The notes: a model not told the origin generated them from the letters alone. Positions 22,940-56,898 are shown, numbered from the stretch's first letter. The stretch is DNA of 64,000 nt from Pseudomonadota bacterium (GCA_027491115.1 JAIXWV010000041.1:7274-71273), one strand, 5' to 3'. Program-made: numbers and translations.

Positions 22940-23470
22940 ATGAAAATCATTAAAAATCTGTCTTTGGGACTCATTCTGGCCTGCCTTGCTTCAGCCTGTG
23001 GCGCACGCCCCCAGTTCGCAGACCGCTTTGACGGATACTCCAACTCCTGGGGTCCTTCAAATTCCGGACAGTACATGTCGGCCGACCTCCAGTGCTCCGA
23101 AACCCCGAATATCATCAGCTCGACCGGTCAAGCTTCCCAGGAATACCGCGCCTGCAGGAATGAGTCGTCATCGACCTCGATCCGTCTTTTCCCCGCCGAC
23201 GGCGCCCTTCGTACGGTTTGCGTCTACCCTACCCTCGGAGGTCGTGGAATCGTGGCAAATCCCTACGGGACGATCTATACCCGTTACGCAGTCCAATGCA
23301 TGAACGTCAATTCCGACGGTGCACAAATCAATTTCGGATCGCTCCAATTCGACGGCATCCAGGTCGTCCGAGCGGCAGACGCACCGGTCATGTCCTATTG
23401 CCTGGCCTACGGCAATGTCTCGACCTGTGCATCCCAGTCATCGCTCCAGTACGCGAACGGCAGCCTTTAA
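22940..23470 (+). CDS. Cys-rich lipoprotein, hypothetical
   Basis: Strong RBS GAGAGGGAG before the ATG at 22940, lipobox ILACLASAC. The upstream part of the track ORF has no RBS. Confidence 0.55.
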   Translation: MKIIKNLSLGLILACLASACGARPQFADRFDGYSNSWGPSNSGQYMSADLQCSETPNIISSTGQASQEYRACRNESSSTSIRLFPADGALRTVCVYPTLGGRGIVANPYGTIYTRYAVQCMNVNSDGAQINFGSLQFDGIQVVRAADAPVMSYCLAYGNVSTCASQSSLQYANGSL

Positions 23471-24429
23471 TGGATGTTCCTTCGGACCTTCTCGGGCAGG
23501 AGGTTTTCTCCCTCTTCAGCACGACTTTCCGAACCTGAGCTTCCGAGGACTTCCTTTTTCCCGTGTCGGCACATCCCGACAAGTTCAGGATCCCGGGTTG
23601 GGAACACATCGATGATCTCGATCTGCGTCTCGTCCGCGGTGTCTTTGGCGATTACGACATACCAATACGGCTCGTCGTGGTCGTAATGCTTGATGAAGTG
23701 GTAAACTCGCTTGGCCGACTTCGGCTGATAGCTCCAGAGCTCATTCGGCTTTTGCAAGGTTTCCTCGAGACACTTCTGGTAAAAGCCGAAATCCTCGGGG
23801 GGTATGTCTTGGACCTTACGGGACCGGACAATCATGGCTCGAACCGAGTCCGCCTCAGTCCAGGGTTCTGCGAGCCGATCGGAGCCCTGCTGCTCATCCC
23901 GCGCAAGCTCGGTCACGCCTTCTTCTTCAGGAGCTTCGATTCGCGATCCTTCCTTCACAACCTTCATCTGGTCGCCTCGACGGAAAACATCCACGAGATT
24001 GCGATCAGAACTTACGAATGCGAGAAAAAGAAAACTCGGCTCACCTCTCAACATCAAACAGACCGCCACAGCCCAGACCTTCTTACTCTCCGGCATGTAT
24101 TCCGCGATCAGGGTGTAACGGCGATCTCCCCTTGGGAGCGTTTCCATCCAGACTTCTTCGGGATTCTCGAGCGCCATCCATCTGAAATGCGCATATCGCT
24201 CGCGTTCCTCAGCACTCAGATCCTGGGGGGCCACATGCTTTCCATACTCCCTTTCGAGTTTCTCGATCTCGGGAGTGAAGTGACTGACAATGCAACCTTC
24301 ATCGCAAAAGTACCGACCGACTTCTTCCTCGACAAAAAGAGCCTGATCCCTTTGGGAAATGACTTTTTTGCATTCTTCACAATGTACTTTTGCCGATTTT
24401 TTAGCCGAACCGCGCGGTTTTGAACTCAT
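23467..24429 (-). CDS. Hypothetical protein with N-terminal zinc-ribbon (CxxC...CxxxC) and an internal duplicated module of about 60 aa
   Basis: CEECKK...CDEGC near the N-terminus. Two similar modules: EEVWMETLP..RRYTLIAEY...WAVAVC...LVDVFRRG and NELWSYQPK..RVYHFIKHY...WYVVIA...LVGMCRHG. The plus-strand ORF 23563..24423 is F/L-rich antisense junk. Confidence 0.5.
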   Translation of the reverse strand: MSSKPRGSAKKSAKVHCEECKKVISQRDQALFVEEEVGRYFCDEGCIVSHFTPEIEKLEREYGKHVAPQDLSAEERERYAHFRWMALENPEEVWMETLPRGDRRYTLIAEYMPESKKVWAVAVCLMLRGEPSFLFLAFVSSDRNLVDVFRRGDQMKVVKEGSRIEAPEEEGVTELARDEQQGSDRLAEPWTEADSVRAMIVRSRKVQDIPPEDFGFYQKCLEETLQKPNELWSYQPKSAKRVYHFIKHYDHDEPYWYVVIAKDTADETQIEIIDVFPTRDPELVGMCRHGKKEVLGSSGSESRAEEGENLLPEKVRRNIH

Positions 24430-30562: not shown

Positions 30563-30639
30563 GCGGGAGTAGCTCAGTTGGCTAGAGCGCCACGTTGCCA
30601 ACGTGGAGGTCGAGGGTTCGAGCCCCTTTTCCCGCTCCA
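30563..30639 (+). tRNA. tRNA-Gly (anticodon GCC)
   Basis: Cloverleaf folded by hand: acceptor GCGGGAG/TTCCCGC, D-arm GCTC..GAGC, anticodon stem CCACG/CGTGG with loop TTGCCAA, T-arm GAGGG TTCGAGC CCCTT, then CCA. Confidence 0.9.
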
Positions 30640-30647
30640 TTTTTCTC

Positions 30648-31259
30648 ATGAACTTCACACCAGACTTCAAGGATCAGTTTTATAGGCTCTTGCAAGCCCG
30701 TCGTTCGGTGAGGAAGTTCAAACCTGAAATGCCTCCCCGGGAGATCCTGGAGCGGGTTCTTCAAGCTGCAATCGAAGCACCTTCCGGAAAGAATCGTCAG
30801 AACTGGAGGTTCTTTGTGTTGTCCGGTGAAAAGCGGGACGCATACCTGAGCCTTTCCCAAAAATCCTGGCTCGGTATCAAAGACATTCTCGAGAAACGAC
30901 TGAAGCCCTCTCTGTATCAATTCACGGAGCGGTTCTTCTACACCCTGGGCGATGCTCCGGTGGTCATCTTGTGCTATTCGGCGAATGACAGTGACGAAAA
31001 ACACCTCACCAGTGTCGGCTCGGTGTATATGGCCGTTGAGAACCTGAACCTGGCCGCAGTAGCAGAAGGTCTTGGATGCTGCACCATGGGCGCACCCTTG
31101 GAAATCAAAGCCGAGGTGGACTCATTCCTCGGCATTGAAACACTCCGTGAACCCGGAGTGGAAAACATGGAACTGCTCTGTGCGGTGGTCCTCGGTTATC
31201 CGGACCACACGCCACCTCGGGCTCCTCGCCAGCTCGAAAATCGAGTCCGCTGGCTTTAA
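30648..31259 (+). CDS. Nitroreductase family protein
   Basis: LLQARRSVRKFKPEMPP...APSGKNRQNWRFFVL. The ATG lies right after the tRNA; the track ORF begins inside the tRNA. Confidence 0.8.
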   Translation: MNFTPDFKDQFYRLLQARRSVRKFKPEMPPREILERVLQAAIEAPSGKNRQNWRFFVLSGEKRDAYLSLSQKSWLGIKDILEKRLKPSLYQFTERFFYTLGDAPVVILCYSANDSDEKHLTSVGSVYMAVENLNLAAVAEGLGCCTMGAPLEIKAEVDSFLGIETLREPGVENMELLCAVVLGYPDHTPPRAPRQLENRVRWL

Positions 31260-31275
31260 TTCATCCTCACCACTC

Positions 31276-31560
31276 TCAGTGGTGAGCTTCTTCTTTCTTC
31301 TCTTCTTTGTGCTCTTCGGATTTTCCGTGCTTGGTTTCGCAATTCTTACAGCCCTTCTTAGTCTTGGCCTTCTTTTTCATCTTGCAGTTCTCACCACTGC
31401 AGTCCTTATCGCAACCGCCATCGCAGTCGTCTTTCTTCTGCTCGGCAGCCGGAGCTTCCTGTTTGGCAGGAGCAGCGGTATCTTCCGCGCGAACAACCGG
31501 TGAAAGAAACAACGAGAATGCAACCACTGGAACCAATGCGAATTTCTGAATTGAGGTCAT
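31276..31560 (-). CDS. Small secreted Cys/His/Lys-rich protein (putative periplasmic metal-binding)
   Basis: Perfect RBS TAAGGAG before the ATG at 31560. Signal peptide (FALVPVVAFSLFLSPVVRA). Mature part CDGGCDKDCSGENCK...GCKNCETKHG...EEHKEEKKEEAHH. Confidence 0.55.
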   Translation of the reverse strand: MTSIQKFALVPVVAFSLFLSPVVRAEDTAAPAKQEAPAAEQKKDDCDGGCDKDCSGENCKMKKKAKTKKGCKNCETKHGKSEEHKEEKKEEAHH

Positions 31561-31607
31561 GAGTTTCTCCTTACTCCCCATTCTAAACATTCCCTGTGAA
31601 CTCAGGT

Positions 31608-31644
31608 CACAATTTTTTCCATGAAAACCTGAGTTGAATATTTA
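31608..31644. promoter_or_regulatory. Perfect 9-bp dyad AACTCAGGT(N19)ACCTGAGTT in the divergent promoter region; candidate operator
   Basis: Read directly in the AT-rich gap between the Cys-rich gene and the 31680 gene. Confidence 0.3.
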
Positions 31645-31679
31645 AACTCCGGGAATAGAAGAAAGCAGGAATTAAAAAA

Positions 31680-32894
31680 GTGCTTAAATTACTTGCCCTT
31701 GGAATATTAATGACGACACAGGCCTTCGGATCGACCCCCACTCCAGAAGCTTTTTGTCGTGATTACTTAGCCCTGCGTCAAGAACAGTCCAATTCCCGCC
31801 CAAGACCAGATCAAACACTCACCCTCCTGTTCCGGCCTCGCAGCCTGATTCAAGCCAGACAATGGGATCGCCCCGTGCCAGCTCGAAAAGTGAGGGATTC
31901 GTCTGCAAGAACCAAGAAGGTGATTTACGTCCTTCTGAGCTCACCGGAATCGGATGAGTCCGTGATCCGCTCGGTCCGCGCCACCCAAGAGCGCATCCGC
32001 CGTCTCCCTCTGCTCAGGGATCTTGCACGGGCTCCATCCTTGGAAGGGTGTATCGAAGCGGTCCAGCAGGATTCCTTCGGTTATGCGCGGATGAGCGAGT
32101 ACCTCGATCAATATAAGACTGCCCGTCCCCACCTGGATGCCAAACGGCAAAGTGACCTGAGGGCCCTGGTTGAAAAGAAATTGATCGCCTTCGAACACAA
32201 GGGCTGGGAAGTCCGCTTTCCGAAAACCTACTCTGATTTCATGATCGAGCTCGAACGTGATCCCGGAATCCGTGAGGCCATGATCATCGCCCACGCCGAC
32301 CCTGAGGGAAAACTTTACGATTCGACTGGAACGGCGATTCCAGCAGGGGTCCTGTTGAACCTGCCCGAGAGTCTCCAAAAGCTGATTCTATTCAGTTGCC
32401 ATTCCCGTGCGGTTCTCGATCGCTATGAAGCGAAGCGGGCATCCTCATCCATGGATATTCACTACCCCGAACTCGAGGATCAGCATGAGAACCTTTATCG
32501 GACTTCCATCCCGGTCGTGGCACTTCGAGGAATGTTGAATGCAGCAGACGCAGGCCTTTCCGGCGGTTCCGCCCCCGATCGCTCATGCCGGATCGATGTC
32601 GTCCTCCCGGAAGCCTCCGGTCGGTACGAGATTCTGCTTCAGAACCGATTGATCGGGATCCTCGATCGAACAGCCGGGAAATCGATCTCTTTCGACTGTT
32701 CCCTTCTCGGAACCGGAAAAACCATTTTCAAGCTCCATCACGCTGAAGGCGAAGCAAGAACACCCCCAAGGGTGTCCGAGATGCGCCTCACAACTCCCGG
32801 ATCAGGAATGGTCCTGCTCCGGGTGAAGGAGTTTCTTTCGTCAGACGGCATCAGCCACATCCAAACCATCGGTACCACAGGAGGTCACCCATGA
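31680..32894 (+). CDS. Secreted hypothetical protein; possible clan-CD-like cysteine peptidase (His/Cys dyad on hydrophobic strands)
   Basis: Signal peptide (LALGILMTTQAFG). Motifs AMIIAHADPEG and KLILFSCHS are arranged like caspase/gingipain His and Cys strands. This is weak and inferred. Confidence 0.45.
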   Translation: MLKLLALGILMTTQAFGSTPTPEAFCRDYLALRQEQSNSRPRPDQTLTLLFRPRSLIQARQWDRPVPARKVRDSSARTKKVIYVLLSSPESDESVIRSVRATQERIRRLPLLRDLARAPSLEGCIEAVQQDSFGYARMSEYLDQYKTARPHLDAKRQSDLRALVEKKLIAFEHKGWEVRFPKTYSDFMIELERDPGIREAMIIAHADPEGKLYDSTGTAIPAGVLLNLPESLQKLILFSCHSRAVLDRYEAKRASSSMDIHYPELEDQHENLYRTSIPVVALRGMLNAADAGLSGGSAPDRSCRIDVVLPEASGRYEILLQNRLIGILDRTAGKSISFDCSLLGTGKTIFKLHHAEGEARTPPRVSEMRLTTPGSGMVLLRVKEFLSSDGISHIQTIGTTGGHP

Positions 32895-33397
32895 AATCCA
32901 TGAAACAGCGGATCAGCGCCCTGGTCCTTTCCACCACTCTCACAGTCGGAGCCATCAGTGCCCCCACCCAGCGGGCCGAAGCAGGGGTGATCGTCGCCGC
33001 AGCTTCTTCCCTGTATGTGACCATCCCGGCACTTGCGATCGCAGGAATGCTCGGAGGATTCGGTACAGCGGTCGGATCCATCTATTATGCCATTGATCAT
33101 CGCGACAAAGCTTGGTGGGCCTACGCCTTCTTCATGCTCGACGCCGAACTTCAGAACGGAAACCTGCAACAAACCATCGAGCAGCGTTACCCGGGCATCG
33201 ACTCGACCGTTGCAGCCGAGATCGCACGGATCGTTACCGAGAAAGCCAAGGAAACCGCTTTCGATGACAAAGGGCTGAAAGAAATCATTCTCAGCGAAAC
33301 CGACCTGGCACCGGTGACGGACTTGCTCGCCGAGACCGATCCTGCTCTCGGACAAAAGCTCAAAAACGAACTCACCCACTCGACGCTGGTGAAGTGA
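32891..33397 (+). CDS. Secreted or membrane small protein, paralog A (signal peptide plus Gly-zipper hydrophobic segment plus about 90-aa domain)
   Basis: Clear paralog of the next gene: ...QRYPGIDSTVAAE...KGLKEIILSETDLAPV...LTHSTL versus ...QRYPGLDSAVALE...QGLKEVVLTEAEIAPI...LTRSSL. Confidence 0.55.
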   Translation: MKSMKQRISALVLSTTLTVGAISAPTQRAEAGVIVAAASSLYVTIPALAIAGMLGGFGTAVGSIYYAIDHRDKAWWAYAFFMLDAELQNGNLQQTIEQRYPGIDSTVAAEIARIVTEKAKETAFDDKGLKEIILSETDLAPVTDLLAETDPALGQKLKNELTHSTLVK

Positions 33398-33422
33398 ACC
33401 CGAACCCGAAACGGAGAAAACC

Positions 33423-33899
33423 ATGAAATACGTGAAAAATTTAAAAGCCAAACTCGCTCTTCTCGCCTGCCTCACCGCCGCAACGGTGGCCCCCACCTCG
33501 GATGCCAAAGCCGGTATCATCATCGGGGTCGCCATCCCGGGGATCGGATCTGCCTTGGTGGGCCTGACCATCACCTCAGCGGGATTCTTCTGGGGCATCC
33601 AAAGTGATGACCTGAACTACTGGGCTGCGGCTCTCTTTGTTTTGGATCAGGATGCGACTCCTGAAGGTCTCCGGTCCGCTCTAGAACAACGCTATCCGGG
33701 CCTAGACTCCGCAGTGGCTCTCGAGCTCGGTCAATTGATTTCGAATAAGGCCTCCCAACTCGAGAGAAACGGCCAAGGACTCAAGGAAGTGGTACTGACC
33801 GAAGCTGAGATCGCGCCCATCCTGCAGATCCTTGAGGAAACCGGCTCCGATCTTGGGGAACGCTTGAGCCAGGATTTGACCCGCAGCAGCTTGAAATGA
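33423..33899 (+). CDS. Secreted or membrane small protein, paralog B
   Basis: Tandem duplicate of 32891..33397. Signal peptide LALLACLTAATVA, Gly-zipper GVAIPGIGSALVGLTITSAG. Confidence 0.55.
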   Translation: MKYVKNLKAKLALLACLTAATVAPTSDAKAGIIIGVAIPGIGSALVGLTITSAGFFWGIQSDDLNYWAAALFVLDQDATPEGLRSALEQRYPGLDSAVALELGQLISNKASQLERNGQGLKEVVLTEAEIAPILQILEETGSDLGERLSQDLTRSSLK

Positions 33900-33981
33900 T
33901 TCGAGTCCGGCCCGGTCAGCACCCGATGGGTTTTGGCCGGGCCCCCTCAAGCCCGGGGCAATTCCTGCCGATCAGGAGTCT

Positions 33982-34452
33982 ATGCTCAAAATGCTCACCG
34001 GCTTGACCCTGTGGCTCCTCCTGTTCGCTCTCTATCCACTCTCCACACGCGCTCAGGTTCACGGGAGCGGAGGAGGACCGGATCGACCCAGCAATCAGGA
34101 AGCGATGTGCACCGAGCTTCGCGACCGGTCTCGTGACCTGGAAAAAGATTACCTAGATTCGAGAAAAATCCGCTACGAAAACGACCAAAGTTTCTTTGAC
34201 GAAATAAAACGTCTCGCAGCAAAAAGTATATTCAAAGCGATCAGTAAACCATCCTGGGCGCAAACTTCCTGTGGGAGTGCGCCGGTTCCCGTTCACACCC
34301 CGGATCAAATCAAGCTCCTTCATCGGATTGAGCAACTTTGGGTACAAGGGGTCGAATCACCACAATACTGCCTAGGACGTTTCAAGTCCCGTGCCAGAAA
34401 CATTGATGCTCTAAAATGTGTGATCCAATCGCTGTCTCATGAGTCAAAATGA
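33982..34452 (+). CDS. Small secreted hypothetical protein
   Basis: Signal peptide LTLWLLLFALYPLSTRA, 4 Cys. Confidence 0.45.
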   Translation: MLKMLTGLTLWLLLFALYPLSTRAQVHGSGGGPDRPSNQEAMCTELRDRSRDLEKDYLDSRKIRYENDQSFFDEIKRLAAKSIFKAISKPSWAQTSCGSAPVPVHTPDQIKLLHRIEQLWVQGVESPQYCLGRFKSRARNIDALKCVIQSLSHESK

Positions 34453-35638
34453 GGAACGCCACGTCTATTTTCTGGAGACTTTCAAGCTCCTGAGATCGGA
34501 CAAACGCAAATTCCTGTATCGCCTCGAGCATCACACCTTTTCTTTGGCAGAAGGCCGATTGCTCCGTGCGTATCTCGAGTTCCACAGGAACTCGAAGGCG
34601 GGAGCCTTGAAAGAGCTCCGGGTCAGTCCTTTTCATGAAGCATTCTATGAAGGGGTCAGGCTCTACCTCATCGGTCTCGTTTACAACCAGCACAGCCATT
34701 TCAGGTACGCAGTCGAGAATCTCGAACGCTCCGTCCAGACCTTCCAAACCGTGCCTCACTATGGGTTCGTCCTGAATCCGCTCTACTTGCTGATCCTCGC
34801 CCTGGGTAACAGAAGAGAAGTGGCCCGAATGGGCCAACTTTTACTGGAACTCGAATCCATCCCGGTGACCACCGCTCTCGAGAAACTCCAAGTCCTCCAT
34901 TGTCGGATCCTGTATGCCTTGCTCTCAGGTGATACTCAAAACTGCCTTGAGCTTGTTGAACATGCATTCCGTCACAAAAAGCAGGATTTGAAGAGCTTTG
35001 AACCGCATCTACTGATCATCCGAATCTCAGCTTTGATCCAAGAAATGCGTTACGATGACGCGATCTCTCTTCTGGATCGATACAAGAAAACGGCTTCAAA
35101 TGCGATCGTCCGTGCAAACTATGCCTATATCAAGACACTGCTCACCCACCTGCACCAGGGGGCTCCCTTGTACATCTACGCATCGAAGTTCAAGGATTTC
35201 CCGGAGCTACACTGGCAACTGGAAACGGTGAAACGTCTCTCCATCGGGGATTTGGATGGGGCCAGGAAATTTTGGAACCAACTCCGGAAGCACAATACGG
35301 GGCTTTACGGTGTGGACTTCGAGTACAAGGGTGACCCCTCGCTGTTCTCGCAATGCCTAGATCGATACCGGTCTCACACCACTGGAGAGGACTGGGATGA
35401 ATCTGAACTCGCCGGAATCAAATCCAAACGGGATCGACTGCATTTCTTGCTGACCCGGAGTTCAGGTCCGATCCTTGCTGACAGGCTGGTGGACCTGATT
35501 TGGGGAGAAGAAGCCGATGAGCGTACCCTGGCCCGACTCAGGAAACTGATTTCAAACTACTGCAAGGAGCTGGGTGTGAAGGTGGTTTCTCGCCACAACA
35601 GTTACCGTTTGGACCTGCAGACCGGTGAGACCAGGTAA
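34439..35638 (+). CDS. Transcriptional regulator with C-terminal OmpR/PhoB-type winged-helix domain and N-terminal helical (TPR-like) domain
   Basis: C-terminal LHFLLTRSSGPILADRLVDLIWGEEADERTLARLRKLISNYCKELGVKVVSRHNSYRLD fits the trans_reg_C pattern. There is no receiver domain. Confidence 0.55.
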   Translation: MSQNEERHVYFLETFKLLRSDKRKFLYRLEHHTFSLAEGRLLRAYLEFHRNSKAGALKELRVSPFHEAFYEGVRLYLIGLVYNQHSHFRYAVENLERSVQTFQTVPHYGFVLNPLYLLILALGNRREVARMGQLLLELESIPVTTALEKLQVLHCRILYALLSGDTQNCLELVEHAFRHKKQDLKSFEPHLLIIRISALIQEMRYDDAISLLDRYKKTASNAIVRANYAYIKTLLTHLHQGAPLYIYASKFKDFPELHWQLETVKRLSIGDLDGARKFWNQLRKHNTGLYGVDFEYKGDPSLFSQCLDRYRSHTTGEDWDESELAGIKSKRDRLHFLLTRSSGPILADRLVDLIWGEEADERTLARLRKLISNYCKELGVKVVSRHNSYRLDLQTGETR

Positions 35639-36447
35639 TCAGCGAATTCCAAACGATTGAGGGCCTCACAAGCTCCGGGATCGACGGGACAGGTCAATCC
35701 GAGGTGGTGTAACTCCAGATCGACCCGTTTGCGGATCCCGACATGCATTTCGGAACAATTCAAGGCCTCGTCCCAAGCGGGGTTCACGTACTCCGCCCAC
35801 GTGAAGCTCGCATCACGTTCCCATTCCCCCTCCTCGTTGCACCTAAAATACGGACGGGATCCTTCCACTAGGCGGGACCAGAAACGGTACCCTTGGTAAT
35901 CCGCCGCGATGTCTGCCCAGGACTTCACACCCGAAGTCCCAAGACCCCAAAGACCGTCCTCACCATGTTCCGTATCCAAAACCTTCTCGATCGGGGTGCC
36001 TTGACGAACCTGATCGTAGAAATCGAGACCCTGCATGAAAAAGTGCCCGATTTTGTCGGTTCCGATCACCTGGCCCGACAGCTTGAAACTCCGACCGATC
36101 CCGAACACCCTCATGATGGGTGACTCAAAAAAAGAAACCTCCCGATAGACACTGTTTCGGACTCCCACCGGAGTCCTCTCAATCGAATCCGTGAACTCGA
36201 GCCATAGCTCGAGGATCCCGGTCGGATCCGGCCGGATCCACCGAAGGATCTCTTGCCGAAGGACGGCAAAGCTGCAGAATCCGGGGCTCTCGAGACGGGA
36301 GTCGCGAGCCGCACGGTCCAGGATGCTGTTCACCTTCTGGTCCAGGACCGGAATCGAGTCCCGCACCAATGCAGAACGCCCCGTGAAATTATCCACTTCG
36401 TAGGCCAATACCGGCTGAAGGAGCAATAATACGAAGCTCAAGACCAT
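35602..36447 (-). CDS. Secreted hypothetical protein
   Basis: Signal peptide MVLSFVLLLLQPVLA. No recognised domain. Confidence 0.5.
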   Translation of the reverse strand: MVLSFVLLLLQPVLAYEVDNFTGRSALVRDSIPVLDQKVNSILDRAARDSRLESPGFCSFAVLRQEILRWIRPDPTGILELWLEFTDSIERTPVGVRNSVYREVSFFESPIMRVFGIGRSFKLSGQVIGTDKIGHFFMQGLDFYDQVRQGTPIEKVLDTEHGEDGLWGLGTSGVKSWADIAADYQGYRFWSRLVEGSRPYFRCNEEGEWERDASFTWAEYVNPAWDEALNCSEMHVGIRKRVDLELHHLGLTCPVDPGACEALNRLEFADYLVSPVCRSKR

Positions 36448-36503
36448 TTAGTGTTCATAGCACCTGGAAGGAGGTCTTTACAAATCCACTCTGAACAGCT
36501 ATT

Positions 36504-38651
36504 ATGCGCCGCATGAAACTCTCCACCCTTCACTCCATCCCCTCGTTTTTGTTCCTTTTGGCGCCCCAAGTGTTTGCACAGAGCGTGAGTTACTCGGGCT
36601 ACTACAACGGCCCGCGAGTGGACGTGAACTTCATTCAATACCCACCCGCCCAGTACCAGGAGTGCCGTGAAAAATACATCAACTCCACCGCCCGGATCTA
36701 TAGTGCTTGCAGCTTCGGGGTGGATGAAGCCCGTCGGATGGCGGAGCGTTTCGGCGGGGGCAAGGGCCGAATCGAAGGCTACCTGAGAGGGTTCTCCTGG
36801 GGCCTTTATTCTTCAGTACAATCGAATCGCTCGAACGACGACGCGATGGCGATCGGTGCCGCCCTCAATGCCGATCTTTTGGGACGGATTGAACGGGCGA
36901 GCCTCGAGGGTGCCTCACGTGGCAAGTCCGCAGGTGAGGCGCGTGGAGCTTCGGAAGCGAGAAAGCGCTTCACATCGGCTTTGGACAGCGGCATGAGCCC
37001 CATTGCGGAGATCGGGGCCACTCCTCCTTCGGCATTCTCCTCACGCTACCAGGACCCATATAGCAGCCTGATCGGAAAGCCACAGACGCTCGAGGACATG
37101 CTGAAGCAACCGGTCGAAGACTTGAGTCAGATCCGCGTCTACGACAGCTATGACCGTGTTTTCTTGGGAGACGTCCCTCGCTTCAATCTGTTCGATTACT
37201 ACTTCAGTGACGGAACCTACCAGTTTGAGATGGCCCGCTGGGTAGAGCCCCAGGCCGCCATCCGTCAGTGGCTGAACCGTCCGATCGACACCAAGCCTCG
37301 ATACGAAGCTCTCGAAACCGATACCATTCAAGTGGCTGTGCAAAACCCCAAACCGGGTGAGCCCGCAACCCGGACCGAAACCGTTGAATTGAAGGAGATC
37401 TTCCGCAAGTCCTTCGTCAATGCCTACGGCTGGTATGTGAACTACTACTTCTCACAGAACTTCTATACCCAGCTCGATCTGGGACAAAGAGTGGGCGAAT
37501 CCATCGGGAAGCAGGTGGGAATGCGATACGCTCGGTCATCAGGGGAAGTGAAAGGCTTCAACCAGAAGTTCCAACGTGATGAACGTGCCGCCTACGATTC
37601 TGTGTTCGAAAACGCCTATCGAAACGGCTTCACCGCCACGTTCAACGATTATTCCAACAACCCGAAGCCGGAGGTGGACGGGTTTGAAATCATCGGAGAA
37701 GTGGATGACGGAATCCTTCAGCCAGGCGAACGAGTCGCGGTCTCTTTCCGAATCAAGAACTACGGAAAGGTCGCCACCCAGGGCAACGCTTATCTGGAAG
37801 GGGTCCAAAACGGGGTGTCCAGCCAAGAGATCGTGATGCCTGCCCTCCGATCCACTCCGGTTCGTACCGACTTCCTGGGGTCGATCTCCAGTTCGGTTCA
37901 AAACACAGCGAATCTGAATATCGGCCTGACCCTCACCGGGAAGGGATTCGGAGCCTTCACCGTGCTCCAGAGCGCACGGGTCATGAGACAGGTCACTCCA
38001 CTCGGAATCGAAGTGAAAACCCTCGCACCGACCGGGCAGGCAATCGTGAGCTACAGCGTGAAGAATAACTCACGCCTCAATTCCTCGGCTAGCGTCCGGG
38101 TCATCCTACGCGATTCGACCGGTCGAGTAGTGGAGGAGAATCTTGGCATCATCGCAGGCAACCAAACTGCAACGGCCCAATTCCAACTCGACGGGTACTC
38201 CCCTCTCGAGCTGATTCGTGGGCCCGGCATCACGGTGCGTGGCCAGATGTTCCTCGGTGAGCTCGTGATCGGAGAACTCGGTGGCACCGTTCTGTCACAG
38301 AACCCCGTAGCCGATCTCGCCCGGGCATTTGCCGAGCAGGCCCGGGACGCCTCCCGCTCTGAACTGGTTCGCGCCCTTCAGACCGAGCTGGTCGAGCGAA
38401 TTACCGGAGAAACCGCCAACATCGAACGTCGGGGTTACGAGCGCCAGGGAGACGCCACCTACCTCCAACAAACCCTGAACGCCTACCGGGGTAAATCCCT
38501 AAATGCAGTGGCCCGTGAAGCCTACTCGTCCTTGGCTCGCGCACTGTGGCCGGCCCGAAAGGCATTCACTAACTTCATCGGAATCAAATCCTGCAACCGC
38601 AAGTTCTTCGAGTCAGCGGTTAAGGAACTGAACGCCGGTAAAAAGATTTGA
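36504..38651 (+). CDS. Large secreted hypothetical protein (715 aa)
   Basis: Signal peptide IPSFLFLLAPQVFAQS. No recognised domain. Overlaps the next gene start by 4 nt. Confidence 0.55.
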   Translation: MRRMKLSTLHSIPSFLFLLAPQVFAQSVSYSGYYNGPRVDVNFIQYPPAQYQECREKYINSTARIYSACSFGVDEARRMAERFGGGKGRIEGYLRGFSWGLYSSVQSNRSNDDAMAIGAALNADLLGRIERASLEGASRGKSAGEARGASEARKRFTSALDSGMSPIAEIGATPPSAFSSRYQDPYSSLIGKPQTLEDMLKQPVEDLSQIRVYDSYDRVFLGDVPRFNLFDYYFSDGTYQFEMARWVEPQAAIRQWLNRPIDTKPRYEALETDTIQVAVQNPKPGEPATRTETVELKEIFRKSFVNAYGWYVNYYFSQNFYTQLDLGQRVGESIGKQVGMRYARSSGEVKGFNQKFQRDERAAYDSVFENAYRNGFTATFNDYSNNPKPEVDGFEIIGEVDDGILQPGERVAVSFRIKNYGKVATQGNAYLEGVQNGVSSQEIVMPALRSTPVRTDFLGSISSSVQNTANLNIGLTLTGKGFGAFTVLQSARVMRQVTPLGIEVKTLAPTGQAIVSYSVKNNSRLNSSASVRVILRDSTGRVVEENLGIIAGNQTATAQFQLDGYSPLELIRGPGITVRGQMFLGELVIGELGGTVLSQNPVADLARAFAEQARDASRSELVRALQTELVERITGETANIERRGYERQGDATYLQQTLNAYRGKSLNAVAREAYSSLARALWPARKAFTNFIGIKSCNRKFFESAVKELNAGKKI

Positions 38652-39244
38652 GCCTCTTCGTTTCGACCTTCACACTGATCTTCCTGGCCGAACTGCCGGA
38701 TAAGACCGCACTCGCCACCTTGCTGCTTGCCAGCAAAGGTGGCAAGTTCCCGGTGTTTTCGGGAGTGGCCGTCGCCTTTCTGATCCAATGCTTGATTGCG
38801 GTGGGGGTGGGAAGCTGGGTCGGGAAGCTTTCTCCGATCTGGGTCAAGGCTGCCACCGGAGTCCTGTTTCTGGTGTTTGCCGTCATGTCCTTCAGGAAAA
38901 TTTCTGGAGAAGAATCTGAAGAGGCTTCAAGCCCGAACGGTGTGGGAGCGGGATTCACAACCCAAGCCTCAAAAGCCTTTGTAGTCGTTTTCCTGGCTGA
39001 GTGGGGAGATCTGACCCAACTCAGCACGGCGTCCCTTGCCGCCCGGAACCCTGACGGACTCATGGCGGTATTTTCGGCCTCGCTCCTGGCTCTATGGAGT
39101 GTGACCGCGATCGCAGTGGTACTCGGACAACGACTGGGACAATGGGTGTCACCCAAACGCCTGCTCGCCGGTTCCGCCACACTCTTTGGATTAATGGGTG
39201 CCTGGTTTTTGATCGAAGCGGCTCTTCAGATCCGGATCCGGTAA
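38648..39244 (+). CDS. UPF0016/GDT1-family cation (Mn2+/Ca2+) transporter
   Basis: Two E-x-G-D-(K/L)-T motifs (ELPDKT, EWGDLT) and 6 TM. Confidence 0.8.
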   Translation: MSLFVSTFTLIFLAELPDKTALATLLLASKGGKFPVFSGVAVAFLIQCLIAVGVGSWVGKLSPIWVKAATGVLFLVFAVMSFRKISGEESEEASSPNGVGAGFTTQASKAFVVVFLAEWGDLTQLSTASLAARNPDGLMAVFSASLLALWSVTAIAVVLGQRLGQWVSPKRLLAGSATLFGLMGAWFLIEAALQIRIR

Positions 39245-45553: not shown

Positions 45554-46658
45554 GCAAACGGGGGGCAGCGGTGGGTTCGTTCTTTCGACCCCCGTCGAAC
45601 TCGTTCCGTCGCGACTGGATGCGGGTCCACCCGAATCCCTCGTTCATCCGGTCTCCGCTCAACGCGTGGGTCAAAACCTTGGAGATCACCATCGGACGTT
45701 CTATCTGGGGAATGTGTCCGGTCTTCTTAAGGAGGTAGGCGTCGAGATACTCCCCGTAGGACTCGATCCAATTCCTCACCCAATGAGTGGGGACAAAGCG
45801 ATCCGAATCACCCCATATCACGGTGATCTTTCGAGCCATGAACGGCAGAGCCCCGTCAATGAAGTGATCATCCCTCACCGAGTCCACGAAATTCTTGATG
45901 GACGGCCTTTCGTAAAACTCTTTGAAATCCCGATTGAGGAGAGGTCCGAACTTCTTGGGATCGTAGACAATCATCTCGAGGAGCTCCTCGAGCGTAAGGC
46001 CTTGATTCTTGACGATGAAGTCCCCGAAGATCTTGCGCTCCTCCGCGGGAATCAGCCCGGAAGGAGCGATTGCGATGAATTGCCCGATCACCTGTTGGAA
46101 CTGTTGGGCGGCTTTCCCGGCCAACCAGGCTCCGAGCGAATGCCCCATCAGGACCTCGGGTGGATAACGGTCACAGACCATCCTGACGACACCGAGAAGG
46201 ATGTCCATCGAAGACACCATCTCGTGATGAGACAGGAACCCCATGTAACCGGGGAAGTCGATCACCAACACCTCGTCAAAACGACGGGTGAGCTCGGCCT
46301 TGCTGAGAGTGAAAAACGGAAGCCAGGAACCGGGCGAATCTCCGAGCCCGGGAACGAACACCAGACGACGGACTTTCTGTCCGGAAGGAACTTCACGGAG
46401 CGTCTTCCGGATCACGTAAAAAACCGCATCTCCCTGCTTCAACTCTTCGAACCGGAAATCCGCCCGTTCAAAGGCCTGCCGGAGGGCAAAATGCAACACC
46501 TGGTTCTTGTTCGGAATCCTGGCCTTCACGGCCTCGATCCACCGCTCACGGTGCAGGGTCTGTCGAACCCGGTACCGGACGGTTTCTTTCAGTCCCTCGA
46601 GCATCCACTCCGCGAACTCATTCGGATCAAAGGGCGGAGTCTGCTTTTGCTGACTCAT
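45546..46658 (-). CDS. Alpha/beta-hydrolase fold protein
   Basis: Nucleophile elbow GHSLG. Confidence 0.7.
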   Translation of the reverse strand: MSQQKQTPPFDPNEFAEWMLEGLKETVRYRVRQTLHRERWIEAVKARIPNKNQVLHFALRQAFERADFRFEELKQGDAVFYVIRKTLREVPSGQKVRRLVFVPGLGDSPGSWLPFFTLSKAELTRRFDEVLVIDFPGYMGFLSHHEMVSSMDILLGVVRMVCDRYPPEVLMGHSLGAWLAGKAAQQFQQVIGQFIAIAPSGLIPAEERKIFGDFIVKNQGLTLEELLEMIVYDPKKFGPLLNRDFKEFYERPSIKNFVDSVRDDHFIDGALPFMARKITVIWGDSDRFVPTHWVRNWIESYGEYLDAYLLKKTGHIPQIERPMVISKVLTHALSGDRMNEGFGWTRIQSRRNEFDGGRKNEPTAAPRLLK

Positions 46659-47608
46659 GAATTCTTCGGAGCATCGAAGAGCGACTTGGCGTTCAGAGCC
46701 ATCAGATCGCGCAGGTTCTTGCTCATCCCGTCGACCGATCCGTCGAAGAAGAGGATGTTCCCGGTCGAATTCTCACTGATGTTCTTCAAGGCCTCGGTCC
46801 ACATGGAGAAGAGGATGAAAGAAGCGTCGAGATTGCTTTTTTGCATCTCACCCGCCGCTGCGCTCATCCCACGGGCCACTTCCTCACGGAAGCGTGCGAC
46901 AGCTTGACCCCTCAGCATGGCCGCGTTCATTTCGGCCTCGGCTTGGATCCGGATCGCATTCCCTTCGGCTTCGGCAGCCTTGGTCTTGGTGATCAAGAGA
47001 GCCTGGCCTTCATTCTCGGCGGCCGCCTTCATGTTGTTCGCTGCAACCACCTTGCTCATGGAGCGCATGACTTCTTCGTCGAAGGTCACGTCGTTCACCT
47101 GCAGATCGATCAGGTGGTAACCCCACTCCTCGAGATGTTGATCCATGTTGTCCTTGACTGCGAGAGTGATCTCGGTCCGGAGCGAAAGGATCTCGGATTG
47201 GCGCTTGGTCGCCACGAAGGAACGGATGCTCCCCTCGACCGAACGGGAAAGGGTTTGCATGAAGCTCCGGTAGTCCATGAACTTGAACGCGACACTCTTG
47301 ACCGTCTCCTCGTCCGAATCCTTGACCGAATACAGGAGCATGGCTTTGAAGTTTACATTCGCCTGGTCCTGGGTCACCGCCTGGAACTGGAGCTCGATCG
47401 ATTGGTTTTGTAGAGAAATTTTGGAAAAAACTTGCTCGATCACCGGAATCTTGAAGTTCAACCCGGCGCGGAGGGTCCGCGAATACTTTCCGAAGAGTGT
47501 CAGAACCGTCACGGTGCCTTGCTGCACGGTCACAATCCCGGACACGAGAATCACGAACAGAACAATACCCAGAATCAACATTGCAGGAATCTCCATCAAT
47601 ATTTCCAT
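46655..47608 (-). CDS. SPFH/band-7 (stomatin/HflK/C-like) membrane protein
   Basis: N-terminal TM then an SPFH core (VQQGTVTVLTLFGKYSRTLRAGLNFKIPVIEQV...). Confidence 0.8.
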   Translation of the reverse strand: MEILMEIPAMLILGIVLFVILVSGIVTVQQGTVTVLTLFGKYSRTLRAGLNFKIPVIEQVFSKISLQNQSIELQFQAVTQDQANVNFKAMLLYSVKDSDEETVKSVAFKFMDYRSFMQTLSRSVEGSIRSFVATKRQSEILSLRTEITLAVKDNMDQHLEEWGYHLIDLQVNDVTFDEEVMRSMSKVVAANNMKAAAENEGQALLITKTKAAEAEGNAIRIQAEAEMNAAMLRGQAVARFREEVARGMSAAAGEMQKSNLDASFILFSMWTEALKNISENSTGNILFFDGSVDGMSKNLRDLMALNAKSLFDAPKNS

Positions 47609-55558: not shown

Positions 55559-56048
55559 CCGGCGTCACGCTTCCCGCTCCGGAAGAGCTGCCCCGGTTCA
55601 GCAACTGGGTTCCCGACTTGGGAAGCTCCTGTTGCCCGCGTGCCTTACGGATCAAGTCTCCCACACTGGTGGTGGTCAGATAATCCTGCATGATGGTTCC
55701 CAGGTTCTCGAAGTAAGACTTAGTGAGCACAAACTCAACCGTGTCGCTCTTCAGGTCGCCGCTTCCGATCAGGTCTTTAGCTGGGTTGATGTTTTCACCA
55801 ACCGAAGTCAGAACCTCTCGGACAGAAATCTCGTCCATGGTCCGGGACAGAACATATCCGCCCCCCGGTCCACGAACTGACTTCACCACAGCACCTTTAC
55901 GAAGTCTGCGGAACAGTTGCTCCAAATAATGGAGCGAAATGTTTTGACGCTCGGAAATCTCCTGCAAGCGAACAGGCTTCCCGTTCGAATGGAACGACAG
56001 ATCAAGAATGGCACGGACAGCATAACGGCCTTTGGATGTTAAACGCAT
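55530..56048 (-). CDS. Rrf2-family regulator without Cys cluster (CymR-like)
   Basis: MRLTSKGRYAVRAILDLS...ISLHYLEQLFRRLRKGAVVKSVRGPGGGY. RBS GGAGGT before the ATG at 56048. Confidence 0.75.
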   Translation of the reverse strand: MRLTSKGRYAVRAILDLSFHSNGKPVRLQEISERQNISLHYLEQLFRRLRKGAVVKSVRGPGGGYVLSRTMDEISVREVLTSVGENINPAKDLIGSGDLKSDTVEFVLTKSYFENLGTIMQDYLTTTSVGDLIRKARGQQELPKSGTQLLNRGSSSGAGSVTPDVAKERPLS

Positions 56049-56292
56049 CTGACTACCTCCTACGCGTTTTGGGGCATAATCTGAACTTCCGCTCGAATGA
56101 CACACCCGAGCGCAAAGGGGTTTTACCATTATTTGCTCACTCAAGTCAACTATATTGTCTCTATTGAATAAATTAAAATAAGCTCATTAATTCAGTTACT
56201 TATCTAAACAAAAACAGAAACCGTCAACTTCGTAACGTTTTGCTCTACAGAAATTCCTGATCCATCCGATCAGATCTCGAGGGATTTTTGAC

Positions 56293-56898
56293 ATGGGCGA
56301 CGCGAAAAAGAAGGATCAAGAAACCATCTCCATTGTGGTGGATGAGTTCAACTCAGCCGTGCCGGGGGTGACCATGTTGCTGAATCCGAAGGTGATTTTG
56401 GAGCGTGAAGCCTCACGGATGAAACTGGAACCATCAGGTTCCGGCACTCCGGAAGCTCCCCTCCAAACTGAAGATCCCCCCAAATCGCCTTTAGCCGAAC
56501 TCGGTGTGACCCTTGAGCTTCACTTTGAGGAAAACGGGACGGGCTTCAAATTCCTGAAAGCCGTACCTCATTCTCAGGAGAAGATGGAAGACTGGCAGAA
56601 TGAAGTCTACCGTGGGATGAAACTCGAACTCGATGTATTCGGGATCAACATTTCCTTCCAGGAATTTTCTGGGAAGAAAGATCCCTTCAAAGCGGATGCT
56701 TTATGTGTCCCGGAGGACTCCTGGATCCAGACCGTTCGATCGAGAGAACATTCCACTCGATTGTATGTATTGATTACCCGGCGCTCCTTGTTGATGGAGA
56801 AAGAACGAGTCTATACCTTGCTCGAAGGATCTGGTGAAAAAGACTCCAACGATGACAGTGATGACAGTGGCGGAATCGAAATCGATTTCGCCTCTTAA
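56293..56898 (+). CDS. Hypothetical protein with acidic C-terminus
   Basis: 201 aa. Divergent from the Rrf2 operon across an AT-rich 245-bp region. Confidence 0.45.
   Translation: MGDAKKKDQETISIVVDEFNSAVPGVTMLLNPKVILEREASRMKLEPSGSGTPEAPLQTEDPPKSPLAELGVTLELHFEENGTGFKFLKAVPHSQEKMEDWQNEVYRGMKLELDVFGINISFQEFSGKKDPFKADALCVPEDSWIQTVRSREHSTRLYVLITRRSLLMEKERVYTLLEGSGEKDSNDDSDDSGGIEIDFAS

What the first reader, a model, noticed from the sequence alone, without database searches (positions are those of the whole stretch)
30563..38651. tRNA-Gly-proximal block of secreted hypothetical proteins with tandem paralogs, possible clan-CD-like protease and orphan winged-helix regulator
Immediately downstream of tRNA-Gly(GCC) lies about 8 kb of genes that are almost all signal-peptide proteins without recognisable domains. 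They are a nitroreductase, a Cys/His-rich mini-protein, a 404-aa secreted protein, two tandem paralogs, a 156-aa secreted protein, an OmpR-type wHTH regulator lacking a receiver domain, a 281-aa secreted protein and a 715-aa secreted protein. tRNA genes are classic integration sites, yet no integrase is present. The block could be a degraded island or a lineage-specific secretome module controlled by the orphan regulator.
Basis: partly seen in the sequence, partly recalled or inferred. Interest (0 to 1): 0.5.

Follow-up and report, generated by a model that had tools for sequence, protein, structure and literature searches.

The report
Conserved five-gene secreted protease–regulator module
The block next to tRNA-Gly is native chromosome of an uncultured predatory bacterium (Bdellovibrionota), not a degraded island, and its middle five genes form an undescribed conserved module: a secreted caspase-like protease, two membrane-anchored paralogs, and a small secreted protein coupled to a cytoplasmic regulator whose sensor domain most resembles Gram-positive peptide quorum-sensing receptors.

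Summary
tRNA-Gly(GCC) is followed by a nitroreductase and eight hypothetical genes. Seven of these have signal-peptide-like N-termini and none has a significant Pfam hit. The tRNA-island reading fails. GC and codon use are native, there is no integrase or tRNA-end repeat, and tRNA-Gly abuts the nitroreductase in five related contigs. The whole 8.4 kb is colinear (87% nt) in genus-level MAGs.

The real unit is five + strand genes (31680-35638). A relative with conserved flanks lacks them here. The same five families recur together in three gene orders and different contexts.
- p404 models confidently (pLDDT 92). Its best PDB match is a CHAT domain, with other caspase-fold peptidases close behind. 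Cys240 is invariant and His205 near-invariant, each at a strand end.
- p168 and p158 are 37% identical paralogs that accompany every p404 homolog seen with flanks.
- p156 overlaps p399 and sits directly upstream of it in six of seven contexts.

Function is inferred: a regulated secreted-protease module, possibly peptide-signalling. p156 is too long and looks folded, so this is not a bona fide RRNPP system.

The parts
30563..30639 (+). tRNA-Gly(GCC). It is a conserved neighbour of the nitroreductase, not an integration scar.
   Evidence: ARAGORN. The same tRNA lies directly upstream of the nitroreductase in L003, L007, L008, L010 and L033. No repeat of its 3' end is found in the block.
30648..31259 (+). 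Nitroreductase-family flavoenzyme. It is cytoplasmic and belongs to the conserved flank.
   Evidence: PF00881, E 6.9e-34. It is 77-92% identical in relatives at the same position.
31276..31590 (-). 104-aa secreted Cys/His/Lys-rich mini-protein, convergent with the nitroreductase. It is conserved at this site and is not part of the five-gene module.
   Evidence: Translation. Signal-peptide heuristic gives VRA|ED. Homologs sit at the same position in L003, L007, L008, L010 and L033. Low GC reflects its Lys-rich composition.
31680..32894 (+). p404: secreted caspase-hemoglobinase-fold (CHAT-like) putative cysteine peptidase with a C-terminal beta-sandwich. First gene of the module.
32891..33397 (+). 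p168: membrane-anchored paralog 1. It has a signal peptide, a Gly-rich hydrophobic segment and a roughly 90-aa soluble domain. Its start overlaps the p404 stop.
   Evidence: Paralogy with p158: 37% identity, E 6e-33. Hydrophobic segment at 31-49. At least two such genes flank every p404 homolog fetched with enough flank: L033, L034, L035, L037, L038.
33423..33899 (+). p158: membrane-anchored paralog 2.
33982..34452 (+). p156: small secreted protein with an invariant A-Q-V/T-x-GGG(P)(D) motif just after the predicted signal-peptide cleavage site. Its last 14 nt overlap the p399 start.
   Evidence: Alignment A9. Predicted cleavage TRA|QV. A p156-family gene lies directly upstream of, and overlapping or nearly abutting, the p399 homolog in the window type, L003, L032, L034, L037 and L042. 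It is the fastest-diverging gene of the block and has the lowest GC3.
34439..35638 (+). p399: cytoplasmic regulator with an N-terminal TPR array (about residues 1-285) and a C-terminal winged helix-turn-helix (about 330-391). It has no receiver domain.
35602..36447 (-). p281: secreted Cys-containing protein of unknown fold, divergent from p715. Its 3' end overlaps the p399 3' end by 37 nt. It belongs to the older conserved core of the site.
   Evidence: Translation. Predicted cleavage VLA|YE. Homologs sit next to p715 in L003 and L009, which lack the module. No Pfam or PDB sequence match.
36504..38651 (+). p715: secreted protein of a family seen only in Bdellovibrionota assemblies. It has a conserved Cys-containing N-terminal motif (FGVDEARRMAERFGGG) and beta-sandwich-like repeats. 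Function unknown.
   Evidence: 29 homologs down to 28% identity, all about 700-750 aa. 24 GTDB loci, all Bdellovibrionota MAGs. Alignment A1. Weak DUF7932 hits in 11 of 25 members. In distant members the gene sits in unrelated contexts.
38648..39244 (+). GDT1-family cation transporter. It is the right-hand conserved flank and its start overlaps the p715 stop.
   Evidence: PF01169, E 1.5e-37. Conserved next to p715 in L003 and L007-L010.

Best explanation
The 8-kb block is native chromosome of a freshwater Bdellovibrionota MAG and has two layers.

Layer 1 is a locally conserved set of secreted proteins of unknown function (mini-protein, p281, p715). It lies between tRNA-Gly/nitroreductase and the GDT1/Pho-Pst genes.

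Layer 2 is nested between the mini-protein and p281. It is a five-gene, same-strand, tightly packed module made of two sub-units that travel together.
- Sub-unit A is p404 plus the two paralogs p168 and p158. p404 is an exported caspase-fold (CHAT-like) Cys-His peptidase. The paralogs are membrane-anchored and are probably its partners, anchors or substrates.
- Sub-unit B is p156 plus p399. p156 is a small Sec-exported protein, translationally coupled to p399. p399 is a cytoplasmic TPR plus winged-helix transcription factor.

Most likely operation (inferred, not shown): p399 binds DNA through its C-terminal winged helix and switches the module, and possibly other genes, in response to a ligand held in its TPR groove. 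The exported p156 is the best candidate source of that ligand. It may first be cut by p404 at or near the invariant GGG motif. On this reading the module couples an extracytoplasmic proteolytic event to transcription.

Shown: gene content, paralogy, native composition, synteny, recurrence of the five families in three arrangements, and high-confidence fold predictions with their best structural matches. Inferred: catalysis, substrate, DNA binding, ligand.
For: Native, not an island:
- Flat GC and native codon use.
- No tRNA-end repeat.
- tRNA-nitroreductase adjacency is conserved.
- Full colinearity with L007, L008 and L010, with housekeeping flanks.

The module is a unit:
- L003 keeps the flanks, mini-protein, p281 and p715. 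At this site it has a tRNA-Arg and one 123-aa ORF instead of the five genes.
- L033 has p404-p168-p158 at the same site.
- L034 has p156-p399-p404-p168-p158 between MotAB and DUF900 genes.
- L037 has three p168-like genes and a long p404, convergent with p399 and p156.
- L035 and L038 have p404 with two paralogs.
- L003, L032 and L042 have the p156-p399 pair alone.
- Within the window the genes are packed: p404/p168 overlap by 4 nt, p156/p399 overlap by 14 nt, the other gaps are 25 and 82 nt, and no terminator excess is seen.

p404:
- C240 is invariant and H205 is present in at least 90% of 40 diverse members. Two conserved Cys pairs fit an exported protein.
- AF2 pLDDT 92.

p399:
- AF2 pLDDT 90.6 with wHTH topology.
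- Four independent weak sequence matches to OmpR/SARP-type winged helices fall on the same 60-70 residues. hhalign against PhoB places them in the canonical register.
Against: - No biochemical or expression data exist. All relatives are metagenomic.
- No sequence-level link to any clan-CD family was found. The His is followed by Ala or Ser rather than the usual Gly.
- The wHTH assignment never reaches a curated threshold. The best Pfam E-value is 0.011, seen in 4 of 19 members, and hhalign probability is 2.9%.
- p156 is 129-183 aa with partly conserved cysteines, so it looks like a folded protein rather than a pro-peptide.
- Sub-units A and B also occur apart (L003, L032, L042; L031 has p399 without p156). 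Their coupling is therefore frequent but not obligatory.
- The neighbourhood sample is small, about ten independent contexts.
Confidence: 0.45

Rival explanations
1. Degraded genomic island integrated at tRNA-Gly. The 8 kb would have arrived by site-specific integration and later lost its integrase.
For: It lies next to a tRNA gene. Most genes are orphans without Pfam families. p156 has a deviant GC3. The inner five genes are missing in L003.
Against: Composition and codon use are native. There is no att-like repeat of the tRNA end. The nitroreductase starts 9 nt after the tRNA, and this junction is conserved in all five relatives checked. The variable segment begins 1 kb away from the tRNA, after two conserved genes. 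No homologs are found on plasmids, phages or viral contigs.
Confidence: 0.03
2. An ordinary predation or secretome cluster. p404 and the other secreted proteins would be prey-directed or envelope-remodelling hydrolases and accessory proteins. p399 would be a conventional SARP/HilA-like pathway activator that senses a small molecule or a protein partner. p156 would be just another co-regulated secreted protein with no signalling role.
For: Bdellovibrionota affiliation. Many exported proteins. The best sequence match of the p399 C-terminus is the SARP AfsR winged helix. p156 looks folded and is long. TPR similarity is generic.
Confidence: 0.3
3. Chance neighbourhood. The nine genes would be unrelated lineage-specific orphans that happen to accumulate in a permissive intergenic hotspot, with no functional coupling.
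For: The site is variable between relatives. L003 has a tRNA-Arg and a different small ORF there. The mini-protein, p281 and p715 show no linkage to the module elsewhere.
Against: The five inner families recur together in three different gene orders and in unrelated flanking contexts. Start and stop codons overlap.
Confidence: 0.07
4. A sorting or transpeptidase system. Like PorU, GPI8 or legumain-type ligases, p404 would be a clan-CD transpeptidase. It would process p156 or the paralogs, or attach them covalently to an envelope component, with the oligo-Gly motif as recognition or nucleophile site. p399 would only regulate expression.
Against: This is purely analogical. The GGG is 5-6 residues in from the predicted N-terminus. 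No sorting signal was recognised in any partner, and no data distinguish hydrolysis from ligation.
Confidence: 0.1
5. An anti-phage defence module using a CHAT protease and a TPR sensor, as in type III-E Craspase or SAVED-CHAT.
For: The top structural match of p404 is SAVED-CHAT, and TPR-CHAT Csx29 is also hit. A TPR protein is encoded in the same module.
Against: p404 has a signal peptide and conserved Cys pairs, so it is extracytoplasmic. There are no PADLOC hits. No CRISPR, cyclase or SAVED component is nearby. TPR and the CHAT-like domain sit in different compartments.
Confidence: 0.02

Closest known systems
RRNPP(A) peptide quorum-sensing pairs of Bacillota (NprR-NprX, Rap-Phr, PlcR-PapR, AimR-AimP)
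   Same: The receptor is cytoplasmic, 399 aa long, and made mostly of TPR-like helix pairs. Its best structural matches by two methods are NprR and Rap proteins in complex with their peptides. A Sec-exported product is encoded by the directly adjacent, overlapping gene, and this adjacency is conserved over deep divergence. An extracellular protease is needed for maturation in the known systems, and here a protease-like gene is often in the same module.
   Different: The host is a diderm Bdellovibrionota, whereas RRNPP(A) is described only for Bacillota and their mobile elements (PMC10075063, PMC12700828). The DNA-binding domain is a C-terminal winged helix instead of an N-terminal XRE-type HTH, so TPR comes first; that architecture was explicitly filtered out in PMC10075063. 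The adjacent product is 129-183 aa with conserved cysteines, not a 10-100 aa pro-peptide. Its conserved element is N-terminal rather than C-terminal. No sequence homology to any RRNPP receptor was detected.
Clan CD cysteine peptidases, especially CHAT-domain proteases (SAVED-CHAT, Csx29), caspases, metacaspases, legumain and GPI8
   Different: No Pfam or PDB sequence-level match exists. The motifs are H-A/S...G and S-C-H rather than H-G and Q/A-C-x-G. The protein is exported with disulfide-type Cys pairs, carries a long helical insertion (residues about 93-173) and has a C-terminal beta-sandwich. Catalysis is untested.
Receiver-less OmpR/PhoB-type winged-helix activators with helical repeat domains (SARPs such as AfsR, and HilA)
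   Same: The winged helix is of OmpR/SARP type. The closest sequence match is the AfsR DNA-binding domain. It is combined with a TPR-like domain and has no receiver domain.
tRNA-linked genomic islands
   Same: The block lies next to a tRNA gene, is rich in orphan genes, and is partly absent in one relative.
   Different: It has no integrase, no direct repeats and no compositional signal. The tRNA-proximal genes are the conserved ones.

Membership tests
tRNA-integrated genomic island | Integrase or recombinase gene at one end | tested here: not met
   No such ORF or Pfam hit lies between 30.5 and 39.3 kb.
tRNA-integrated genomic island | Direct repeat of the tRNA 3' end at the distal boundary | tested here: not met
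   The 24-nt tRNA end has no second copy with up to 3 mismatches. The 15-nt end with up to 2 mismatches matches only at 7.3 and 45.1 kb on the opposite strand. The repeat scan of 30-40 kb shows nothing relevant.
tRNA-integrated genomic island | Deviant base composition or codon usage | tested here: not met
   GC is 0.51-0.58 throughout. Gene-wise GC3 and codon log-likelihood lie within about 1.5 sd, except for p156 and the mini-protein. Tetranucleotide z is at most 2.1.
tRNA-integrated genomic island | Empty site, with the tRNA directly joined to the distal flank, in relatives | tested here: not met
   All relatives keep tRNA-Gly, nitroreductase and mini-protein in order. Only 31.7-35.6 kb is missing in L003, and that segment is not bounded by tRNA-Gly.
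Clan CD (caspase-hemoglobinase fold) cysteine peptidase / CHAT | Caspase-hemoglobinase alpha/beta fold | tested here: met
Clan CD (caspase-hemoglobinase fold) cysteine peptidase / CHAT | Conserved catalytic His then Cys, each at the C-terminal end of a hydrophobic beta-strand | tested here: inconclusive
   H205 is in at least 90% of members and ends strand 197-206. C240 is invariant and follows strand 234-238.
Clan CD (caspase-hemoglobinase fold) cysteine peptidase / CHAT | Significant match to a clan-CD sequence family (CHAT, Peptidase_C13/C14/C25 and others) | tested here: not met
   No such Pfam hit in 40 family members at E <= 0.1; there is only one weak DUF4347 hit. A profile search of PDB sequences gives nothing relevant.
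Clan CD (caspase-hemoglobinase fold) cysteine peptidase / CHAT | Proteolytic activity dependent on the Cys | not testable with these tools
   Needs biochemistry.
RRNPP(A) quorum-sensing pair (criteria of PMC10075063) | Receptor 250-500 aa | tested here: met
   p399 is 399 aa and its homologs are 388-412 aa.
RRNPP(A) quorum-sensing pair (criteria of PMC10075063) | Receptor carries peptide-binding TPRs detectable by TPR HMMs (E < 1e-5) | tested here: inconclusive
RRNPP(A) quorum-sensing pair (criteria of PMC10075063) | Adjacent gene encodes a small (10-100 aa) pro-peptide | tested here: not met
   p156 is 156 aa and family members are 129-183 aa, with partly conserved cysteines.
RRNPP(A) quorum-sensing pair (criteria of PMC10075063) | Pro-peptide exported by Sec | tested here: met
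   It has an N-terminal basic and hydrophobic region and an AxA-like site TRA|QV by heuristic only, because SignalP was not available.
RRNPP(A) quorum-sensing pair (criteria of PMC10075063) | Receptor and pro-peptide genes directly adjacent (-60 to 400 bp) | tested here: met
   The overlap is 14 nt in the window. The genes are adjacent in 6 of 7 independent contexts.
RRNPP(A) quorum-sensing pair (criteria of PMC10075063) | N-terminal effector or HTH domain followed by C-terminal TPRs; Bacillota host or their mobile elements | tested here: not met
   TPRs are N-terminal and the winged helix is C-terminal. The host is Bdellovibrionota. There are no plasmid or phage homologs.
OmpR/PhoB-type winged helix (Pfam Trans_reg_C) | Score above the Pfam gathering threshold | tested here: not met
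   The window protein has no hit. Four of 19 homologs hit at a best E of 0.011. NCBIfam SARP AfsR gives E 8.6e-4 over residues 325-384, far below its cutoff.
OmpR/PhoB-type winged helix (Pfam Trans_reg_C) | alpha1-alpha2-alpha3 followed by a beta-hairpin wing, with the W/G and RLR(K)K motif register | tested here: met
   DSSP on the AF2 model gives H330-340, H347-355, H361-378, E382-385 and E388-391. hhalign against a PhoB profile aligns LIWGEE...RLRKLIS with the canonical positions, but at low probability (E 0.016, Prob 2.9%). PDB profile hits to YycF and ToxR DNA-binding domains fall on the same residues at E about 0.9.
OmpR/PhoB-type winged helix (Pfam Trans_reg_C) | Sequence-specific DNA binding | not testable with these tools
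   Needs EMSA or DAP-seq.
SARP (wHTH + BTAD) | N-terminal wHTH followed by a BTAD domain | tested here: not met

The most novel reading that the evidence does not exclude
The p156-p399 pair, with p404 as a dedicated maturation protease, is a peptide- or protein-fragment-based cell-cell or envelope-to-cytoplasm signalling system of the RRNPP type in a Gram-negative predatory lineage. It would be built with a winged-helix output domain. It could be either a remote outgroup of the Bacillota RRNPPA receptors or an independent convergence on the same logic.
Probability: 0.2. Interest if true: 0.85.

Novelty: new variant of a known kind. Interest (0 to 1): 0.55.

Why it matters
All five module families lack Pfam, NCBIfam or PADLOC assignments, and I found no literature on them. 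Even so, they form a recurrent, rearranging gene set across uncultured Bdellovibrionota.

If p404 is an active exported caspase-fold protease, it adds a secreted, disulfide-stabilised branch to a clan best known for intracellular signalling proteases.

If the p156-p399 pair signals as RRNPP systems do, cytoplasmic TPR peptide receptors would extend beyond Bacillota. That would also supply the remote structural outgroup that PMC12700828 says is needed to root the RRNPPA family.

For annotation, the result removes a false 'island' call. It also gives testable names to roughly 125 p404 representatives, the retrieved p399 and p156 homologs, and the p168/p158 copies seen in fetched loci.

Tried and rejected
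- **Direct repeats of the tRNA end and general repeat scan:** nothing relevant.
- **Family and sequence searches:** Pfam, NCBIfam and PADLOC on all block proteins gave only the nitroreductase and GDT1. PDB sequence searches with single sequences and profiles for p404, p281 and p715 gave nothing usable. Pfam on ten long-form p404 homologs, to learn from their N-terminal extensions, gave no domains.
- **Metagenome scans:** The scan with the paralog alignment returned only 3 loci.
- **AFDB Foldseek library:** unavailable.
- **L031 downstream gene:** I tested whether the 713-aa gene after a p399 homolog is a long p404 or a p715 relative. It is neither.
- **Mobile elements:** plasmid, phage and viral-contig searches for p399 and a plasmid search for p404 found no match.
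- **tRNA-Arg remnant:** I looked in the window for a remnant of the tRNA-Arg that L003 carries at the module site. None was found.
- **Defence-system reading (CHAT plus TPR):** rejected on compartment and PADLOC grounds.
- **Literature:** a search for Bdellovibrio with CHAT found nothing, and a search for DUF4347 returned four papers, none informative.

Full report
**1. What is in the sequence**

ARAGORN confirms tRNA-Gly(GCC) at 30563-30639 on the + strand. ORF listing and translation give the following genes:
- a nitroreductase, 30648-31259 + (PF00881, E 7e-34)
- a 104-aa Cys/His/Lys-rich protein, 31276-31590, minus strand
- p404, 31680-32894 +
- p168, 32891-33397 +
- p158, 33423-33899 +
- p156, 33982-34452 +
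- p399, 34439-35638 +
- p281, 35602-36447, minus strand
- p715, 36504-38651 +
- a GDT1 transporter, 38648-39244 +

p168 and p158 are true paralogs (37% identity, E 6e-33). A hydrophobicity and AxA-site heuristic finds signal-peptide-like N-termini in the mini-protein, p404, p168, p158, p156, p281 and p715. It finds none in p399 or the nitroreductase. Apart from the nitroreductase and GDT1, nothing reaches significance in Pfam, NCBIfam or PADLOC.

**2. Not a tRNA-linked island**

- GC is flat across the window.
- Gene-wise GC3, synonymous-codon likelihood and tetranucleotide distance are within the window's spread. The exceptions are the short p156 gene and the Lys-rich mini-protein.
- No copy of the tRNA 3' end lies in or near the block, and no integrase is present.
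- The exact sequence occurs on metagenomic contigs whose flanks are housekeeping genes: FBPase, CDP-alcohol phosphatidyltransferase, cob(I)alamin adenosyltransferase, PhoB/PhoU/PstBACS and TyrRS. Farther out are Der, Era, MiaB, MnmA, IscS and Lnt.
- A genome-collection scan with the p715 family places the lineage in Bdellovibrionota MAGs.
- Three genus-level relatives (L007, L008, L010) carry the whole block colinearly. L007 aligns over all 8.4 kb at 87% nt identity.
- tRNA-Gly immediately precedes the nitroreductase in L003, L007, L008, L010 and L033.

**3. The block has two layers**

L003 is a more distant relative (p715 59% identical). It keeps every flank gene, the mini-protein, p281, p715 and GDT1. 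Between the mini-protein and p281 it has only a tRNA-Arg and an unrelated 123-aa secreted ORF. The variable unit is therefore 31680-35638, five same-strand genes. These are tightly packed: p404/p168 overlap by 4 nt, p156/p399 overlap by 14 nt, the other gaps are 25 and 82 nt, and there is no excess of terminator-like sites.

p715 belongs to a family seen only in Bdellovibrionota assemblies, in which distant members sit in unrelated contexts. It is not linked to the five genes.

**4. The five genes are a recurrent module**

| Locus | Arrangement |
|---|---|
| L033 (p404 46% id) | same site: nitroreductase / mini-protein / p404 / p168 / p158 |
| L034 (p404 29% id) | between MotAB and DUF900 genes: p156-like, p399-like, p404-like, p168-like, p158-like |
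| L037 | three p168-like genes and a long-form p404, convergent with p399-like and an overlapping p156-like gene |
| L035, L038 | p404 with two paralogs |
| L003, L032, L042 | p156-p399 pair alone; the L042 copy was not used to build the HMM and scores E 6e-18 |
| L031 | p399 homolog without p156 |
| L040 (marine, p404 about 22% id) | a p168-like gene and, 5 kb away, an analogous TPR plus C-terminal winged-helix-like protein |

The two sub-units are therefore p404 plus paralogs, and p156 plus p399. Each is internally very stable, and they are frequently but not always joined. No homologs of p399 or p404 were found on plasmids, and none of p399 on phages or viral contigs.

**5. p404**

An exhaustive HMMER search finds 123 representatives. 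In a 40-sequence alignment C26, C124, D214, P221, C240 and P278 are invariant. H205, G210, C303 and C340 are nearly invariant. The core motif is hhhhH(A/S)xxxGxLxD...P..FF...hhhYSCH.

AlphaFold2 with this alignment gives pLDDT 92 and pTM 0.88. The model has an alpha/beta domain whose strands end in H205 (strand 197-206) and just before C240 (strand 234-238). It also has a long helical insertion and a C-terminal beta-sandwich.

No sequence-level connection to clan CD was found. I rate 'exported caspase-fold Cys-His peptidase' as probable but unproven. I could not superpose the dyad.

**6. p399 and p156**

p399 homologs align over their full length, with many invariant polar residues in the helical part.

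Several weak hits converge on residues 320-393 as an OmpR/SARP-type winged helix:
- NCBIfam AfsR, E 8.6e-4
- PDB AfsR, E 0.07
- profile hits to YycF and ToxR DNA-binding domains, E about 0.9
- Pfam Trans_reg_C in 4 of 19 members, best E 0.011
- hhalign against a PhoB profile in the canonical register, but with a probability of only 2.9%

The AF2 model (pLDDT 90.6) shows about eight helix pairs followed by helix-helix-helix-beta-hairpin.

p156 homologs share little beyond a signal peptide and an invariant A-Q-V/T-x-GGG(P)(D) at the predicted mature N-terminus. They also have partly conserved cysteines.

Measured against the RRNPP signature of PMC10075063:
- Met: receptor length, adjacency and Sec export.
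- Inconclusive: TPR content, which is met structurally but not by HMM threshold.
- Failed: pro-peptide size, domain order and taxon.

This is therefore not a member of the RRNPP family, although it may work in a similar way.

**7. Mechanism**

My best-supported reading is a regulated secreted-protease module. p399 would be a ligand-responsive transcription factor. p404 would be an exported protease that works with its two membrane-anchored paralogs. p156, co-translated with p399 and exported, is the best candidate for linking the two compartments, perhaps after cleavage near its GGG motif.

What is shown is gene content, conservation and predicted folds. Every functional step is inferred. The rivals, with the evidence for and against each, are given separately. 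They are an ordinary predation cluster with a SARP-like activator, a clan-CD transpeptidase or sorting system, a chance neighbourhood, a defence system, and a tRNA island.

**8. Novelty and verdict**

None of the five families is in Pfam, NCBIfam or PADLOC, and I found no literature on them. RRNPP(A) systems are described only for Bacillota and their mobile elements (PMC10075063, PMC12700828). The latter paper explicitly calls for remote structural homologs to serve as an outgroup.

The finding as written (island or secretome block) is largely ordinary. The five-gene module inside it is a credible new variant of protease-plus-TPR-regulator signalling and deserves follow-up. Interest 0.55.

Noticed in passing
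L003:8442-8903 (the site equivalent to window 31591-35640): Where the window has the five-gene module, the relative L003 carries a tRNA-Arg(TCG) followed by an unrelated 123-aa secreted ORF. The site between the mini-protein and p281 is therefore a hotspot of gene turnover. No remnant of this tRNA is found in the window.
   Followed up: partly
window 30639-30648: The nitroreductase ATG lies only 9 nt after the 3' end of tRNA-Gly. This tight junction is conserved in five relatives, which suggests co-transcription of a tRNA and an mRNA.
   Followed up: partly
L003:20522-22087: L003 lacks the module at the tRNA-Gly site. It does carry a stand-alone p156-like/p399-like pair between the abhydrolase and DUF900 genes, at the place where the window has a Band_7/SPFH gene (46655-47608).
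   Followed up: partly
window 36504-38651 and alignment A1: The p715 family is seen only in Bdellovibrionota assemblies (24 GTDB loci). It has an almost invariant N-terminal motif C...C.FGxDEARRMAERFGGGxGRxxGYLRGFSWG, a G-x3-G-x3-G-x3-G stretch and two DDGIxQPGE beta-sandwich-like units. Function is unknown, and one source mislabels a member as FliH.
   Followed up: partly
window 38648-38651: The p715 stop codon overlaps the TTG start of the GDT1-family cation transporter, which suggests translational coupling. In L003 the two genes are 95 nt apart.
   Followed up: no
window 31276-31590 (-): The secreted mini-protein is rich in Cys, His, Lys and Glu (CDGGCDKDCSGENC...HGKSEEHKEEKKEEAHH). It is conserved next to the nitroreductase in L003 and L033 and looks like a periplasmic metal-binding peptide. 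It has only a weak, sub-threshold NCBIfam similarity to the acid-shock protein Asr.
   Followed up: no
window 56001-57000 (ORF 56293-56898 +): This is the only marked GC dip of the window (0.47). It coincides with a 201-aa ORF without Pfam hits, lying between an Rrf2 regulator and TsaE.
   Followed up: partly
window 23467-24429 (-); also L003:259-1209: A 320-aa protein carries a PBECR2 (phage-barnase/EndoU/colicin-like nuclease) domain within otherwise housekeeping context. It is conserved in L003.
   Followed up: no
L040:8001-15310: A marine (TARA) contig has a p404 homolog at about 22% identity next to CsrA/FliW and flagellin genes. It also carries a weak p168-like gene and, 5 kb downstream, a 369-aa TPR protein with a C-terminal LYG...LNKLRVLIHRLKKK winged-helix-like tail that the p399 HMM does not detect.
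   Followed up: partly
window 35602-35638: The convergent genes p399 (+) and p281 (-) overlap by 37 nt at their 3' ends, leaving no room for a terminator between them.
   Followed up: no
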